Source of the DNA: Gammaproteobacteria bacterium
GTDB lineage: Bacteria > Pseudomonadota > Gammaproteobacteria > UBA1113
Length of the DNA: 64,000 bases
NCBI GenBank assembly: GCA_020051155.1
Contig: JAGVJK010000001.1
Location: forward strand, 18,605 to 82,604
Reading direction: 5' to 3'
Shown piece by piece: positions 27,001 to 33,000 of the stretch (position 1 is its first letter; each line of letters opens with the position of its first letter). The position numbers are program-made.

Positions 27001-30000
27001 CAGAGTATTCACATAACACCCTTTGAGAGGCTTAAAACCGTCCTTCCTCATATTCAATGGATAAGCTAGCAAGAGTTCTTCCTGTCGTGCATATTTCCCT
27101 AGCAACACAGCAAAAGCTGCCTTTATAATATTAAACGCAGAATGTTGATTGTCTTTTGAATACTTTTTTACTTTCTGATATAACTCATCCTTCACTAATA
27201 AATTTTTCACAATCACGGCATTCTCTGTCGATTCTAAATGATCATTTTTAGGTAGTTCTATTTGCAAAGGTATTTGTTGCAATCGAGCAGCTATCGCTTG
27301 CGGCGAAATATTTTTAGGTTTTGCTTGCTCCCACTGCAGATAGGCTTGAAGCTGTTCTATCCCTGGTTTGTCACAAGCTGGCAACTGTGTTGGCTCATGA
27401 TAAAATGTTTCAATCTGCGTCATCAATGCATCATACTGCGTGCCATCTAACACAATATGATGAATCACCACCAACAAAGAAATAGTTTGATCAAACTTAT
27501 TTTCAATAATAACAAATCGATATAATGGATCTTGTTCTAAGTTAAACGGCTTATGAATTTCTCGATCTTGATACTCTTTAGCCAACGTCTCAGTCTGAGC
27601 TTGATAAGATATAATATTAGCAATGACTTGATGATGAATCACGTGTTTTAGACAAGACTCTGCCTCATCATACACAAAGTTACTTCTTAAGTGATACTCT
27701 TGATCCACCACCTTCTGCAACGCCGTTGTTAATTTCAATGGGTCTAAGTGGTTCGTATAGTGATACACACAATGAAAATGATAATAATACTGCTCATTTT
27801 GATTTAATTTTTTTGCATCGACCCAGAATAAATTGGCACATTCACTAGCATTGATCACTGTTGCATTTTTCATTGACAAAACCTCTCTATGATCGCTGAT
27901 ATTCAGAATTCAGCAACCGAATAATAATAAATAAAATAATCTGTGCGCTGAAAAAAAAGCGCATGAAGAATTTAAATGATTGACGTGTTTATTGATGTGT
28001 TATTGACATGATGAGATCCTCTCTTTCTTTTAAATCATGAAATGCTAAACTGGCATCTCGACCTGATTGTGTATCATAAAGATTTTTCTTTTTATGTCAA
28101 TAAAGATAATGTATTTATTTTTAGAATCATTCCCCGAAGTGAGAGAATGGTTTTAAGAGAAGTTCTCGCGGCGAGCCTTGTTGCATAAAATACACACCTT
28201 CTCCTGGGACGATGTGACCGATAGACTGTAAATCATATCCCAACGTCCGTTTAAACTCTGTAGTCAAATTAGCATATGCCTCGGGCGCAACAGTTAGTAA
28301 TAAACCATAATCCTCGCCACCCGTTAATTGTACCTGCAACGGATCCAACCCAAGCTGCTGGCATGCATTAACAAACTCCTCTGAGGGCATTAATTGTTCC
28401 AGCTGAATGTTTGCCGCTACCTTTGAAGACGCACAAAGCCGTTGCAGATCGATAAACAAACCATCAGAAAGATCCATCATGGCAGTGACTTCTTTCTTGT
28501 GACTTAACCATGCACCTTCCTGCAAACGGGCTATAGGCTTTAAACAAACTTTTTTGAAAGTTTGTAAACCTTTGACCTCCGCTTCCAGAGCCATTAAGCC
28601 AAGATGAGCATGACCTAAGACGCCAGCGAAACAAATAACATCACCTGGCAGAGCTCGATTACGATATTTAATCTTCGATGTTTCAGCAACACCAATGGCA
28701 GTAATGCTAATAAAGAGTTTATCCGGTGACTGAGTGGTATCGCCCCCGATTAAGATCACAGAAGCATCTTTACATGCTTTAGAAAATCCTTTTAAAAATT
28801 CATGAATCTCTTTTTCATAGGACGCTGGGATAGAAAGCCCCAATAAAACGAATTGTGGTTTAGCACCCATTGCTGCTAAATCACTTAAATTCACATGTAA
28901 TGCCTTGTGCGCTAAGCTAGCCGGATCATAATACACACGACGAAAGTGCACATCTTCAATCAGCACATCTTTGGTTAAAACATAACTTGAGGTTTCTGAC
29001 AACGGGATTACCGCTGCATCATCACCAATATTCGTTGGAAATTCTGCATGCAAATACTCAATAATGTTTGCTTCACTCAGCATAAAGTCGGCTCATAGTT
29101 TTGCCAATTTTACATCAGAGGACTCTTGGCTTTGCAAATATTTTTGGTAAGACATAACCCGTGCTGGCTCGATATCACAGATACTGGGATCAGCGATATA
29201 AGCATAGTAATAGCGTTCTTTACCTTCTAATAGCTGTGCTGGGTAAAGATATGTTGCCCAATCTGCCACTGGTACGTCACTGGCCGCTTGTTTAGGAAAA
29301 TAAGGAACATGTGTTCTGTCTTTGAGTCTATCAATAATCCATTGTGGCGCTTGGCCTTTCTCGGCTAAGGCGAGATAAGCATTCATTTCCTCATCATTGA
29401 CTAACACAAAACTACTTGGGTTTGCCTGTTGATCCAGTAGCAAAAAACTACCGCGGTTGGCCAATAGATAGTATTCTACAATTTTTTTCTCTTCGATCAT
29501 TTTCTCAAAAACTTTAGCAAAGCCTCTCTCTTCTAAGGCATTTAGAATAGGAGCGCTCGCTTGAGAGGAGGTATTAAATAACATCTCTGACAATTTTACA
29601 AATTGTTTTTTTTGTAATTCTTCGATAGTTTCAATCAGCACTTCTGTCATTTTTGGGATTGTTTTTGGGATAAACTTATCAATCAAGTCTTCATTAAACG
29701 CTTCCAAAGCCAGCTCATTACTGGCTTCACCGGTCAGCAAAACGCGCATCATGGATTTATGGCGTAATTGTCGAAAGAATTCTAGACCATTCATACTTGG
29801 CATAGAATAATCGATGATTAAAACCATCACTTCATCAAAACGATTGGGGTTATAAATTTCTTGTTTAATTTTTCTAAGATCAAAATTTAGAAAATCTTGA
29901 GATGCTTCTTTTTCATCGGATATGAATCTTGTAAAAAATGGCTCAACTCGATAATTATTATTTAAATAAGAGAGTGCTTTCTGAGGATCTTGAAAAAAAT

Positions 30001-33000
30001 AACACGAGAAGCGATCACTCAACTGAATTTCCATTGAATCTAAAAAACTTTTATTATCATCCACCAACACTATTTTGGTCGGGTGGTAACACACACTGAT
30101 CATCTTAAGACTCCCTTAAATAATTAGCTTTCTTTCGTTTTATTTTTTTTCGGAAAACACAATTTAAACAAAGTATAGTCGTTTACCCTAGACTTGCAGC
30201 TGATATCTCCTTTCAAAGATTTCATGACTAGCTTACTGAAAGATAATCCAACACCGGCTCCATGACGAGTCCTTGTAAAAAATCGTTCAAAGATATGCGG
30301 CAAGTCTTGTTGAGCAATTCCCATCCCAGTGTCCTTAAAATAAAGAAGATTATAAGGACTGCTTTTTTCTATCCAGATATAAATAGAACCTTTCCCTGCT
30401 TTCTCAACATAATACAGTGCATTTCTAATGAGATTAAATAGCACATAGATCAACAGTATTTTTTTCCCTGCTACCAGAAAATCATTATTTTCAGTATTAT
30501 TCCAACGAATCATCTCTCGTTGTTCCGCTCTAAAGGGATAGCGTGCTAAAGCTTCATCAACACATTCTGCCATGGAAAATATTTCCCCTTCATTGCCTAA
30601 GGCAGGATTGATGCTCATCAGCAACATGTCAATCACATTAGACGCCGCATTGGTTTCAACCTCTATGAGTGCTGGTTGCTGTTCTAGTTTTGCAAAAACG
30701 TTTTGTCGAATATCTCCCACGGGTAATCCCGCTTGTTTTGCTTCACGATAAGCATCAAATAAAATTGGGTAGTATTTTTTAAGATTCAGTGCAACGGTAT
30801 TGATCGTGGCTAAGGGTGTACGAATTTCGTGAGCCATACTTGCAGAAACTAACGCCATGGCTTCTAGTTGTTTTTCTTTTTGTGTGATCTCTCGGTTTCT
30901 AACAAACAGCACGCTAAAAAACACAATAGAAATATAACTAAACGCAACTAGATAATAGTTTTTGGGTTGTGGTAATGCTCCATCGAGAACATAAAAAGAG
31001 AGACAGGCTAAGGTAACACCCACTACTAATATGATAAGCATGGGAACAATATCTAACAATAGCACCATCAGCACCAGCATTGTCATGGCATTCAAAATCC
31101 ATAGGTTCGAAAAACCATGTTTTAATAAAAAAAATGTCACGAAAAATGGCAGAGAATAGAGAATCGTAAGATACCAAAATAGTGGGAAAAACTTAAGACA
31201 CTTCTTTGGCCAATAGGGTTTTAAAATAAGTAATGCGCACAAAACAATAATCACTGAGCGCATTCCTGAGTTTTCATACCCCTGAGGATTCAATACAACC
31301 CAGATAATATAGTAAAAAGCGTAAGTCACTACCCCAAATATACCGAAGATCACCGCTAATTTTTCAGCACGCTCTGCGTCCTGATTTATTCTCTGGAGCG
31401 CTATATTTGCAATCTTCCTGATCGAATTTAATATCTGCATGTCCATATCCTTAACACTAAGAATTCCATTCTACCTATGTTTTTGAGGAATGGTAAGCTT
31501 TTACTATCATTGCTTTGATTTTAAGCGAACCTCCTACCGCCCGCACCGATGCGGGTGCGATTGAAAGTGTCGGTTGAAATATTCCTTCCCATCAATTGTT
31601 ATTTCCATTCTCTACGCTGTCATCCCCGCGCAGGCGGGGACCCATTTTCATAGCAGCTCAGGAGCCCGTACAAAAATGGGTCCCCGCCTGCGCGGGGATG
31701 ACAACATGGAGGTGTCGCAGGGCACACAATATTTCAACCGACACTTTCAATCGCACCCAATCTTAATCCGCTTGGGGTGCAGAATACAAAAATCGATTGC
31801 ACAAGCTCTTTGCTGTCTTTACAATAAGGCGATGAAAAATATACCTGCTAAAACTGTGGCAATCATTGGTGCTGGACGTCTCGGGAAAACCTTGGCGCGT
31901 CTTGTTGTGTCTGCTTCGGATTATAGCCTTAGTGGTCTTTATACTCGTTCTGCCAGCCCACAGATTGGCGAAGTCTTAACTGACACGAGCATATTGATCC
32001 AATCATCTGAACATATGCAACCTGCCGATATTTATCTGATCACAACACCCGATGATCAAATTGCTGCAGCTTGTGACATGCTCTGTCATTCTTCTTACTT
32101 ACAACCTGGCAATATCATTTTACATTGCAGTGGATTACACACCGCCGCTATTTTACAATCCGCAAAAAATCACGGTTGTTATACCGCTAGTATTCATCCT
32201 TTACGTAGCTTTGCTGATCCTCTTCAATCCTATCAAGCCTTTCCCGGAACGTATTGCGCCCTGGAGGGCGACGAAGCTGGCTTATTAGAAACACGAAAAT
32301 TATTTGAAAGCTTCGGCGGTATTGTTTTTTCTATTGCCTCTGATGAGAAAGCACTGTATCACGCGGCCTCTGTCTTTGCGTCAAATTACACCGTCACTCT
32401 GTATGCAGTGGCAACACAATTATTACAAGATGCGCAAGTCTCTCCAGAGATTGCCAGCGCCATGACACAAAACTTAATGCAAGGCACTCTCAATAATCTT
32501 GCTTATCACACTGACCCAGCACAGGCTTTAACGGGCCCTATTCTTCGCGGCGATGAACAAACACTTCGCGCTCATTTAAAAAGTTTACAACCAGCGACGT
32601 TAAAACAACTGTATGCTATCTTAGGTGAGCATACACTGGATCTCACCAAATTATCTCCTGAAAAAAAATCTGCTATTCAACGAATCTTATCCAGTTAAAT
32701 ACACATCTGCCGTAAAGGAACTGCTGGTCCGGCATTTTCACCGATTGTATTCTCTTTTTCAAAAAATTTGACCATACATAAGCACTGTACTAAATTAGCA
32801 AAGAAGATACTTAGCATGACGCCAAATTCGCTTATCCGTGCGAAAAAAACGTGATTTCCTGTGGGGAGCGGATTACCGATAATTGAGGTTAAAGATGAAT
32901 GATAATCTTCATCATCTAACCCCTGCTCTTCTTCTAATACTGTTTTGCAAACATCCACGACATCTGTCACCGTTATTTCTTGAGAAGCGTGAAAGAATTT

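What the first reader, a model, noticed from the sequence alone, without database searches (positions are those of the whole stretch)
29093..31446. LqsS/LqsR-like sensor-regulator pair with no autoinducer synthase and non-canonical gene order
The kinase is about 440 aa, has six N-terminal TM helices and no receiver domain, matching the CqsS/LqsS/LqsT architecture. The regulator is 336 aa with a canonical receiver (phospho-Asp around residue 98) and an about 200-aa C-terminal domain without HTH or enzymatic motifs, as in LqsR. In Legionella the canonical locus is lqsA-lqsR-hdeD-lqsS. Here the kinase directly precedes the regulator, and no CqsA/LqsA-type PLP-dependent synthase or hdeD is present in the window. 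Instead thiL and a natural-product megasynthase follow.
Basis: partly seen in the sequence, partly recalled or inferred. Interest (0 to 1): 0.6.

Follow-up and report, generated by a model that had tools for sequence, protein, structure and literature searches.

The report
Synthase-less CqsS-like kinase with LqsR-like regulator
This is an ordinary two-gene signalling operon, a six-helix membrane sensor kinase of the CqsS/LqsS family followed by an LqsR-family response regulator; it is a cousin of the Legionella quorum-sensing pair rather than its counterpart, and both its gene order and its lack of a nearby signal synthase are common in this widespread family.

Summary
A 440-aa kinase (30124-31446, minus strand) with six hydrophobic N-terminal segments and no receiver domain lies 20 nt upstream of a 336-aa regulator (29093-30103). 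thiL and a 3846-aa NRPS-PKS follow. None of the 37 ORFs of at least 150 aa is a CqsA/LqsA-type synthase or an hdeD, and tblastn with Vibrio CqsA finds nothing.

The family assignment is also right. The regulator matches the L. pneumophila LqsR crystal structure 6sy9 over its full length (E 2e-58; fold TM 0.67/0.73). The kinase aligns with Vibrio CqsS through both the membrane domain and the kinase core (E 8e-42).

However, the pair is not orthologous to LqsS/LqsR. The regulator is 33% identical to LqsR, whereas two Legionella LqsR orthologs are 55% identical to each other. Bootstrapped trees (96-100%) place both genes in a sister clade. RecA indicates the organism is probably not a Legionella.

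Kinase followed by regulator is the usual order in the wider family (18 of about 29 loci sampled). Synthase-less pairs and LqsR-family regulators in hundreds of proteobacteria are already published.

Verdict: a new member of a known kind, of low to moderate interest.

The parts
30124..31446 (-). Sensor histidine kinase of the CqsS/LqsS family. It is 440 aa with no receiver domain.
   Evidence: ORF. HATPase_c and a HisKA H-box. 28% identity and E 8e-42 to V. campbellii CqsS over residues 16-432. Relatives at 31-37% identity are labelled CqsS by JGI.
30898..31359 (-). Six-TM sensor domain, residues about 30-183. The positions equivalent to the V. cholerae CqsS ligand determinants are W116, N119, Y171, S173, F177 and F181.
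   Evidence: Hydrophobic blocks and site mapping. The same alignment reproduces the published LqsS residues S111/S114/I166/F168/A172/L176/H200 (PMC3376566), which validates it.
30829..30831 (-). Codon of His206, the predicted autophosphorylation site in the H-box (AHEIRTPL).
   Evidence: This column is His in all 36 aligned kinases and aligns with V. cholerae CqsS H194 and LqsS H200.
30145..30462 (-). HATPase_c catalytic domain of the kinase, residues 329-434.
   Evidence: Pfam PF02518, E 2.3e-16.
29093..30103 (-). LqsR-family response regulator, 336 aa.
   Evidence: phmmer hit to PDB 6sy9 (L. pneumophila LqsR): E 2.2e-58, query residues 2-330. Foldseek top hit is 6sy9: E 4.5e-26, TM 0.67/0.73.
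29654..30079 (-). Receiver domain, residues about 9-150. It carries the acidic pocket D15/D16, the phospho-acceptor D98 (codon 29810-29812), T124 and K147.
   Evidence: Pfam Response_reg. All five residues are invariant in 39 homologs, and D98 aligns with LqsR D108 (D108 from PMC3376566).
29096..29611 (-). LqsR-type C-terminal output domain, residues 165-336, including the conserved G218-S219 beta-hairpin.
   Evidence: No Pfam family matches. Searched alone, it finds 902 cluster representatives (274 at E<=1e-10). Nearly all are 320-345 aa with the domain at the same position.
31468..31496 (-). Candidate sigma-70-like promoter (TTACCA-17-TAGAAT), 22 nt upstream of the kinase ATG.
   Evidence: Consensus scan, 9 of 12 matches. 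The number of such sites in the region is no greater than in shuffles, so this is weak evidence.
28127..29083 (-). thiL (thiamine-phosphate kinase). It is co-oriented and starts 9 nt after the regulator stop, so it is probably co-transcribed. It is context, not part of the signalling system.
   Evidence: TIGR01379, 267 bits. Junction sequence. The same order is seen in the 92%-identical relative L030.

Best explanation
The locus is a two-gene operon, kinase then regulator, with thiL probably riding on the same transcript. It encodes a two-component system of the CqsS/LqsS-LqsR family and belongs to a clade that is sister to the bona fide Legionella LqsS/LqsR and to the cqsA-linked systems, not part of either.

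Inferred mechanism, by homology with CqsS and LqsS/LqsR:
1. The six-TM domain binds a small hydrophobic ligand inside the membrane.
2. Ligand binding switches the kinase between kinase and phosphatase modes.
3. His206 autophosphorylates and passes the phosphoryl group directly to Asp98 of the regulator, because the kinase has no receiver or Hpt step.
4. The phosphorylated regulator dimerises and acts through its LqsR-type, degenerate GGDEF-like output domain. The biochemical output of this domain is unknown even for LqsR itself.

No signal synthase is linked. The system therefore either listens to a signal made elsewhere (an unlinked synthase, or other organisms) or senses a ligand that is not a canonical alpha-hydroxyketone.

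Shown here: the homology, the domain architecture, the catalytic residues, the gene order, the clade placement, and the absence of a synthase in 64 kb. Inferred: the ligand class, the phosphotransfer partnership, and the output.
For: - Regulator: full-length match to the LqsR structure 6sy9 (E 2.2e-58; the only full-length fold match, TM 0.67/0.73). The receiver residues D15/D16/D98/T124/K147 are invariant, and D98 aligns with D108.
- Kinase: alignment with V. campbellii CqsS through the TM domain and kinase core. JGI labels relatives CqsS. The H-box His is invariant.
- Coupling: a 20-nt gap with a Shine-Dalgarno-like motif. The same kinase-to-regulator adjacency occurs in L001-L010, L030, L031, L033, L037-L039, L041 and the P0017 contig. 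The kinase and regulator trees are congruent.
- Clade placement: 33% identity to LqsR, against 55% between two Legionella LqsR orthologs. Bootstrap support is 98-100 (regulator) and 96-100 (kinase) for splits that exclude LqsR/LqsS and the cqsA-linked systems.
- No synthase. None of the other eight clade loci tabulated, nor the P0017 contig as far as its gene list runs, has cqsA within its 3-10 kb flanks. L010, L037 and L038, outside the clade, have cqsA convergent right after the regulator.
- The family is large and uniform. It is published as the 'LqsR family' (PMC10653808), and synthase-less receptor sets are published for Legionella (PMC8023197).
Against: - No experiment supports phosphotransfer, the ligand or the output.
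- Only 64 kb of the genome could be searched, so an unlinked cqsA/lqsA cannot be excluded.
- Two positions that contact the ligand head group in V. cholerae CqsS differ here: S107 becomes N119 and F162 becomes S173. An alpha-hydroxyketone ligand is therefore not assured.
- The trees are neighbour-joining on about 40 sequences, not maximum likelihood on the full family.
- Promoter and terminator scans are no better than chance, so the operon structure rests on the spacing alone.
- The organism could not be named.
Confidence: 0.8

Rival explanations
1. It is the true Legionella Lqs system (lqsS and lqsR orthologs), rearranged and with lqsA lost. This is the implicit first-reader framing.
For: The architectures match LqsS and LqsR. 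Loss of lqsA with retention of lqsR/lqsS is common in Legionella, and one species (L. norrlandica) has a disorganised cluster (PMC8023197).
Against: - The regulator is 33% and 29% identical to L. pneumophila and L. dresdenensis LqsR, which are 55% identical to each other.
- The kinase is 33-34% identical to Legionella LqsS.
- Bootstrap support of 96-100 excludes the window pair from the LqsR/LqsS clades.
- The flanking genes are not the conserved cytochrome c5/hemC/RsgA neighbourhood seen in L036 and described in PMC8023197.
- RecA has no Legionella-named protein among its best 120 hits. Named genera sit at about 78-83% identity.
Confidence: 0.05
2. It is a complete alpha-hydroxyketone quorum-sensing system whose CqsA/LqsA-type synthase is encoded elsewhere in the genome, unlinked.
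For: - Trp at the W104 position and aromatic residues at the F160, F166 and C170 positions are retained.
- An unlinked lqsA occurs in at least one Legionella species, L. worsleiensis (PMC8023197).
- Only 64 kb of the genome was visible.
Against: - No locus of the window's clade has cqsA within its available flanks, which run up to 10 kb on each side and about 29-34 kb in the window.
- All three cqsA-linked receptors, and the Legionella LqsS sequences, keep Ser at the S107 position and Phe at the F162 position. The window clade has mostly Asn at the first (7 of 11; only 2 of 11 keep Ser) and never Phe at the second (0 of 11).
- Regulators of the same clade pair with cytoplasmic PAS kinases that cannot bind a membrane ligand in the same way.
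Confidence: 0.2
3. The two-component system is functionally tied to the adjacent NRPS-PKS. It either controls the megasynthase's expression or senses its lipophilic product as an autoinducer.
For: - Kinase, regulator, thiL and NRPS-PKS are co-oriented. The arrangement is kept in the 92%-identical relative L030.
- In an independent clade member, L005, a non-orthologous NRPS (25-27% identity) is followed by the kinase and the regulator with 2-3 nt gaps.
Against: - Only 2 of about 10 clade loci show such a neighbour.
- L030 is too close a relative to count as independent evidence.
- thiL and a 247-nt AT-rich spacer, with a promoter-like site (11 of 12 matches) and a hairpin, separate the regulator from the megasynthase.
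- No precedent was found in the papers read.
Confidence: 0.1
4. It belongs to the second, 'cheY-like' LqsR branch described in Legionella. Some members of that branch are plasmid-borne (pLELO and relatives).
For: That branch is described as lying outside the conserved lqs locus (PMC8023197), as this pair does. tblastn finds the plasmid copies.
Against: - The plasmid regulators are only 28-31% identical to the window regulator.
- pLELO groups with the window in 2 of 100 bootstraps.
- The pLELO regulator has no CqsS-like kinase directly upstream.
Confidence: 0.05

Closest known systems
Legionella pneumophila LqsS/LqsT-LqsR (Lqs quorum-sensing system)
   Same: A six-TM kinase without a receiver domain that passes phosphate directly to a separate regulator. 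The regulator has a receiver domain plus the LqsR-type output domain, and D98 corresponds to D108. The regulator's full-length sequence and fold match 6sy9.
   Different: - Identity is only 33% (regulator) and 33-34% (kinase), and the pair sits in a separate clade.
- The order is kinase then regulator on one strand, instead of lqsA-lqsR-hdeD-lqsS.
- There is no lqsA or hdeD, and the chromosomal neighbourhood differs.
- The sensor has Trp where LqsS has Ser111, and Asn where LqsS has Ser114.
Vibrio CqsS (CAI-1 receptor of the CqsA/CqsS system)
   Same: A homologous six-TM sensor and kinase core (28% identity, E 8e-42). The Trp of TM4 (W104 position) is conserved, and there is a Phe at the chain-length position, as in V. 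harveyi F175 (PMC3285556, PMC3376566).
   Different: CqsS is a hybrid kinase with a C-terminal receiver that feeds LuxU/LuxO, and it is divergently linked to cqsA. The window kinase has no receiver, pairs with an LqsR-type regulator, and has no linked synthase.
cqsS-lqsR-cqsA clusters of environmental proteobacteria (here L010, L037, L038; Nitrococcus, Burkholderia and Polaromonas in the literature)
   Same: Identical kinase-then-regulator order, with overlapping or nearly abutting genes.
   Different: Those loci carry a convergent PF00155 synthase right after the regulator, where the window has thiL. Their regulators group with LqsR (43-46% identity to it), not with the window regulator (31%).
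Legionella species that lack lqsA but keep lqsR/lqsS (Herran et al. 2021, PMC8023197), e.g. L. dresdenensis locus L036
   Same: A receptor and regulator without a synthase, with the published idea that such systems eavesdrop on foreign signals.
   Different: Those are orthologs retained at the conserved cytochrome c5/hemC locus, with lqsR upstream of lqsS. The window pair is a different lineage at a different locus.
PhcX of Ralstonia solanacearum (LqsR-family regulator, Liu et al. 2023, PMC10653808)
   Same: An LqsR-family regulator uncoupled from any lqsA. It shows that the family is widespread (310 of 6,937 proteobacterial genomes) and can be rewired.
   Different: PhcX has lost its LqsS-type partner and sits next to the phcBSRQ genes. 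The window regulator keeps an adjacent CqsS-type kinase.
Sister-clade pairs with a PAS-domain cytoplasmic kinase plus an LqsR-like regulator (L004, L005, L031)
   Same: The same regulator clade and the same kinase core (42-46% identity over residues 185-432), in the same order.
   Different: The sensor module is a cytoplasmic PAS domain instead of the six-TM domain. Most also carry a conserved gene for a protein of about 220 aa with an HTH-like N-terminus after the regulator, which the window lacks.

Membership tests
CqsS/LqsS-family sensor kinases | N-terminal six-TM sensor domain homologous to that of CqsS/LqsS | tested here: met
   BLASTP alignment with V. campbellii CqsS starts at residue 16 and runs through all the TM helices. 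There are six hydrophobic blocks. Family-wide motifs are conserved: YEN after TM1, WP before TM3 and W in TM4.
CqsS/LqsS-family sensor kinases | H-box histidine and HATPase_c catalytic domain | tested here: met
   His206 lies in AHEIRTPL, a column that is His in 36 of 36 sequences. PF02518, E 2.3e-16.
CqsS/LqsS-family sensor kinases | Ligand-determinant residues of V. cholerae CqsS (W104, S107, F160, F162, F166, C170) | tested here: inconclusive
   The window has W116, N119, Y171, S173, F177 and F181. Four of the six positions are CqsS-like. The S107 and F162 equivalents differ, as they do across the window's clade (residue roles from PMC3376566).
CqsS/LqsS-family sensor kinases | Genetic linkage to a CqsA/LqsA PLP-dependent synthase | tested here: not met
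   There is no PF00155 protein among the 37 ORFs, and no tblastn hit to CqsA in 64 kb. Linkage is not universal in the family (PMC8023197).
CqsS/LqsS-family sensor kinases | Binds an alpha-hydroxyketone or amino-ketone autoinducer | not testable with these tools
   This needs ligand-response assays.
Legionella LqsS / LqsT orthologs | Groups phylogenetically with Legionella LqsS | tested here: not met
   L. dresdenensis LqsS and the Legionella sp. LqsS pair together in 100 of 100 bootstraps with the window excluded. The window clade excludes them in 96 of 100. No LqsT reference sequence was available.
LqsR-family response regulators | Receiver domain with the acidic pocket, phospho-Asp, and the Thr and Lys switch residues | tested here: met
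   D15, D16, D98, T124 and K147 are invariant in 39 sequences. D98 corresponds to LqsR D108.
LqsR-family response regulators | LqsR-type C-terminal output domain (five-stranded antiparallel sheet, degenerate GGDEF-like) joined by a long helix | tested here: met
   phmmer to 6sy9 covers residues 2-330. The AlphaFold model (pLDDT 75) has 6sy9 as its only full-length match. The domain alone retrieves 902 representatives with the same architecture. The fold description is from PMC10653808.
LqsR-family response regulators | Orthology to L. pneumophila LqsR itself | tested here: not met
   33% identity. The clade of LqsR, L. dresdenensis LqsR, L037, L038 and P0010 excludes the window clade in 100 of 100 bootstraps.
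LqsR-family response regulators | Phosphorylated by the cognate LqsS-type kinase, followed by dimerisation | not testable with these tools
   This needs in vitro phosphotransfer and dimerisation assays.
Canonical Legionella lqs cluster | Order lqsA-lqsR-(hdeD)-lqsS, between the cytochrome c5 and hydroxymethylbilane synthase genes | tested here: not met
   The window order is kinase, regulator, thiL. The neighbours are a DUF2520 protein, an Fe2+ transport protein, Kup and an NRPS-PKS. Compare L036 and PMC8023197.

The most novel reading that the evidence does not exclude
The window's clade is a distinct, consistently synthase-less branch of the CqsS/LqsR family. Its members carry either six-TM or PAS sensors, often have a conserved partner protein of about 220 aa with an HTH-like N-terminus, and have altered head-group contact residues (the S107 and F162 positions). 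This branch may have been repurposed to sense something other than a CqsA-made alpha-hydroxyketone. In this organism and in L005, that signal could be the lipophilic product of the adjacent NRPS(-PKS). That would be a new signal class for this receptor family.
Probability: 0.08. Interest if true: 0.6.

Novelty: new member of a known kind. Interest (0 to 1): 0.25.

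Why it matters
The pair adds one more divergent, synthase-unlinked member to the CqsS/LqsS-LqsR signalling family, in an organism that is probably not a Legionella. It reinforces three published points:
- LqsR-type regulators are widespread.
- They usually sit directly downstream of their kinase.
- They are often uncoupled from a signal synthase.

The only mildly new points came from comparing loci. The window's pair belongs to a well-supported clade in which no cqsA was found near any locus. 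In that clade two ligand-contact positions differ from the synthase-linked receptors. The same regulator and kinase core are also combined with cytoplasmic PAS sensors. If followed up, this clade could show how an autoinducer receptor family changes its input. As a single locus it is ordinary.

Tried and rejected
- **Naming the organism.** Exact-match contig look-ups for the kinase, the regulator and their database twins found nothing. RecA gave only unnamed close relatives and no Legionella-named protein.
- **Reference-genome scan.** The first alignment was too divergent to derive patterns. The LqsR sequence was rebuilt from the 6sy9 alignment. Legionella LqsS and LqsR came from the L. dresdenensis locus L036 and from P0061.
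- **Plasmid 'cheY-like' LqsR branch.** I considered that the pair belongs to the branch of PMC8023197. For the plasmid group this is rejected: 28-31% identity and 2 of 100 bootstraps.
- **Identity to LqsR.** My first impression of about 45% identity was wrong. The measured value is 33%.
- **CqsS residue mapping.** The first mapping used the wrong numbering offset. It was corrected by minus 9 and validated by reproducing the published LqsS residues.
- **TM prediction.** A 19-residue hydropathy window found only 4 TM peaks. An 11-residue window plus charge boundaries resolved six.
- **Bootstrap.** The first run timed out and was redone with a faster distance calculation.
- **Papers.** The LqsR structure paper and Ng et al. 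2010 are not held. Their content was taken second-hand from PMC10653808 and PMC3376566.
- **Conserved clade partners.** The HTH-like, GerE and single-receiver genes found near relatives were searched for in the window and are absent.
- **Rfam.** A scan of 27500-32500 gave only a sub-threshold microRNA-hairpin match to the palindrome.
- **Promoter and terminator scans.** Results were no better than shuffled sequence.

Full report
**1. The observation**

The kinase is at 30124-31446 (minus strand, 440 aa) and the regulator at 29093-30103 (minus strand, 336 aa).

Pfam finds HATPase_c at kinase residues 329-434 and a weak HisKA H-box hit at 200-222, with no receiver domain. In the regulator it finds a Response_reg domain and nothing for the C-terminal half. 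NCBIfam adds only far-sub-threshold hits; the best for the kinase is the LuxN kinase core.

The kinase N-terminus has six hydrophobic blocks bounded by charged residues, at about 30-52, 62-76, 86-108, 113-131, 133-154 and 163-183.

The kinase stop and the regulator start are 20 nt apart, with an AAGGGAG ribosome-binding motif between them. thiL starts 9 nt after the regulator stop. A 247-nt AT-rich spacer then precedes a 3846-aa NRPS-PKS with the domain set C-A-T-C-A-T-KS-AT-KR-ACP-TE.

All 37 ORFs of at least 150 aa in the window were assigned or scanned. None carries PF00155 (the CqsA/LqsA fold) or an HdeD domain. tblastn with a Vibrio campbellii CqsA, taken from locus L034, finds nothing better than E = 1.3.

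**2. Family identity**

The regulator matches PDB 6sy9 over residues 2-330 at E = 2.2e-58; every other PDB hit covers only the receiver domain. [quoted passage not shown] It is the only full-length structural match to an AlphaFold model of the window protein (pLDDT 75; E 4.5e-26; TM 0.67/0.73).

Window D98 aligns with LqsR D108, the conserved phospho-acceptor (PMC3376566). D15, D16, T124 and K147 are invariant in 39 homologs.

The C-terminal domain searched alone against 1.84 billion representatives finds 902 proteins (274 at E <= 1e-10). Nearly all are 320-345 aa with the domain in the same position. It is therefore a sizeable family with a uniform architecture.

The kinase aligns with V. campbellii CqsS from the first TM helix to the end of the catalytic domain (28% identity, E 8e-42). 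Many of its database relatives carry the JGI label 'CAI-1 autoinducer sensor kinase/phosphatase CqsS'.

**3. Not the Legionella Lqs system**

The L. pneumophila LqsR sequence was rebuilt from the alignment. The canonical lqs locus of L. dresdenensis was fetched as L036: cytochrome c, lqsR, hemYXDC, lqsS and RsgA, with no lqsA. This matches the description in PMC8023197.

- The window regulator is 33% identical to L. pneumophila LqsR and 29% to L. dresdenensis LqsR. Those two are 55% identical to each other.
- The window kinase is 33-34% identical to two Legionella LqsS sequences.
- Neighbour-joining trees with 100 bootstraps place the two Legionella LqsR proteins together with the regulators of cqsA-linked systems (L037, L038, P0010). 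That group excludes the window clade in 100 of 100 replicates.
- The window regulator groups with P0001-P0006, L001 and L005 in 98 of 100 replicates.
- The window kinase groups with P0015-P0019, L001, L007 and L009 in 96 of 100 replicates, with LqsS, the cqsA-linked kinases and Vibrio CqsS excluded.
- The plasmid-borne 'LqsR-like' genes of Legionella (pLELO and relatives; PMC8023197) are only 28-31% identical. They join the window in 2 of 100 replicates.

RecA from the window has unnamed relatives at 98%, 86% and 85% identity. Below that, named genera such as Thioalkalivibrio, Methylophaga and Thiolinea sit at about 78-83%, and no Legionella-named protein appears in the best 120. The organism is therefore probably not a Legionella species. 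A 930-aa ankyrin-repeat protein hints at a host-associated lifestyle, but that is only an inference.

**4. Gene order and synthase linkage across the family**

ORFs were mapped around LqsR-like regulators in about 29 non-redundant loci. A related kinase lies directly upstream on the same strand in 18 of them: L001-L010, L030, L031, L033 (Dyella plasmid), L037, L038, L039, the P0017 contig and the window. The Polaromonas JS666 plasmid L041, fetched later, shows the same adjacency.

A cqsA homolog is present in only three loci: L010, L037 and L038. In each it is convergent right after the regulator, the position occupied by thiL in the window. The order called 'non-canonical' is therefore the family norm, and L. 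pneumophila's lqsA-lqsR-hdeD-lqsS is the exception.

In the window's own clade, none of the other eight loci tabulated (nor the P0017 contig, as far as its gene list runs) has cqsA within its 3-10 kb flanks. Three of them (L004, L005, L031) pair the same regulator type and kinase core (42-46% identity over residues 185-432) with a cytoplasmic PAS sensor instead of the six-TM domain.

**5. Ligand-site comparison**

The roles of CqsS residues are taken from PMC3376566 and PMC3285556. After a numbering offset was corrected, the alignment reproduces the published LqsS residues S111/S114/I166/F168/A172/L176/H200 in P0061, which validates it.

The window kinase has:
- W116, as CqsS W104 (LqsS has Ser here);
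- N119, at the S107 position;
- Y171, at the F160 position;
- S173, at the F162 position;
- F177, at the F166 position;
- F181, at the C170 position. This is a Phe, as in V. harveyi F175, which there restricts the receptor to shorter acyl tails;
- H206, at the H194 position.

The three cqsA-linked receptors and both Legionella LqsS sequences keep Ser and Phe at the S107 and F162 positions. The window clade mostly has Asn at the first (7 of 11; only 2 of 11 keep Ser) and never has Phe at the second (0 of 11). This is compatible with a shifted ligand specificity, but it is only an inference.

**6. Mechanism**

By homology, a hydrophobic ligand in the six-TM domain modulates kinase versus phosphatase activity. 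His206 phosphorylates and transfers directly to Asp98 of the regulator. The regulator then dimerises and acts through the LqsR-type output domain.

The literature describes that domain as a five-stranded antiparallel sheet resembling a degenerate GGDEF domain, with no detected cyclase activity (PMC10653808). The window protein keeps the conserved G218-S219 hairpin.

Homology, catalytic residues, operon-like spacing and congruent kinase and regulator phylogenies are shown here. Ligand, phosphotransfer and output are inferred.

**7. Comparison with the literature, and novelty**

- PMC8023197 reports that 20 of 58 Legionella species lack lqsA but retain lqsR and/or lqsS, and proposes eavesdropping.
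- PMC10653808 defines an LqsR family present in 310 of 6,937 proteobacterial genomes. Linkage to lqsA and lqsS varies, and members include the uncoupled PhcX of Ralstonia.
- PMC3376566 already noted lqsR homologs in the lqs-like clusters of Nitrococcus, Burkholderia and Polaromonas.

The window pair is thus a new, divergent member of a known kind.

**8. Rivals**

- True rearranged Lqs orthologs: largely refuted (section 3).
- A complete system with an unlinked synthase: cannot be excluded from 64 kb. It is disfavoured by the clade-wide absence of cqsA and by the contact-residue differences.
- A functional tie to the NRPS-PKS: suggested by co-orientation, by conservation in the 92% relative L030, and by an independent NRPS-kinase-regulator operon in L005. 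It is seen in only 2 of about 10 loci, and the window's megasynthase appears to have its own promoter region.

**9. Verdict**

This is a new member of a known kind; interest 0.25.

Noticed in passing
window 31553-31758: A 206-bp nested palindrome lies about 107 bp upstream of the kinase start. Its outer arms are 31 nt and 100% complementary (31553-31583 / 31728-31758). Its inner arms are 50 nt and 84% complementary (31610-31659 / 31662-31711). There is a single copy in the window. It could be a MITE-like element or a large hairpin, and it has no meaningful Rfam match. It lies inside the over-extended 5' end of the mechanically called DUF2520 ORF (31574-32698), whose real start is probably near 31829 (MKNIPAKTVAIIGAG).
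   Followed up: partly
L001 396-1082, L004 11022-11705, L005 11024-11665, L008 5169-5849, L031 10999-11658, L039 7068-7742: A conserved protein of about 213-228 aa accompanies the kinase-regulator pair in 6 of 9 loci of the window's clade. It is usually convergent right after the regulator. The two copies scanned (L005, L039) have no Pfam hit; the N-terminus looks HTH-like and the C-terminus carries the motif AAPIIWIRK. A small GerE-type protein and a single-domain receiver occur in 4 of these loci. All three genes are absent from the window.
   Followed up: partly
L005 2487-11017: In an unrelated MAG, a 1992-aa NRPS with a C-A-T-TE core, a PAS kinase and an LqsR-like regulator follow each other with 2-3 nt gaps. 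The NRPS N-terminus looks FkbH/HAD-like from its sequence motif. This echoes the window's kinase-regulator-thiL-NRPS-PKS arrangement. The two megasynthases are only 25-27% identical, so they are not orthologs.
   Followed up: partly
window 16339-27879: A single 3846-aa hybrid NRPS-PKS (two A domains, two C domains, three carrier domains, KS, AT, KR, TE), followed by an MFS transporter (15070-16320). It is conserved in the 92%-identical relative L030. Its likely true start is the ATG at 27873, preceded by an AGAGAGG motif, rather than the TTG at 27879.
   Followed up: partly
window 2034-9327: A complete arginine biosynthesis gene set: argR, argB, argJ and argC on the minus strand, divergent from argF, argG and argH.
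   Followed up: no
window 58711-61503 and 10210-12441: A 930-aa protein with many ankyrin repeats, and a 743-aa protein with only a weak coiled-coil (SMC-like) match. Both are typical of effector-like proteins of host-associated gammaproteobacteria. A HipA-like toxin kinase is at 12587-13867.
   Followed up: no
plasmid hits H35-H48 (Ralstonia megaplasmids): 135 Ralstonia records carry a protein 35% identical to window kinase residues 143-439, that is the last TM segments plus the kinase core. It may be a remnant or relative of an LqsS-type kinase, in a genus where the LqsR homolog PhcX is reported to have lost lqsA and lqsS.
   Followed up: no
L033 (Dyella plasmid p1) and L041 (Polaromonas sp. 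JS666 plasmid 1): CqsS-like kinase and LqsR-like regulator pairs, in kinase-then-regulator order and with no annotated synthase nearby, occur on large plasmids next to defence or mobility genes (BREX, the PRTRC system). This suggests such pairs spread horizontally.
   Followed up: partly
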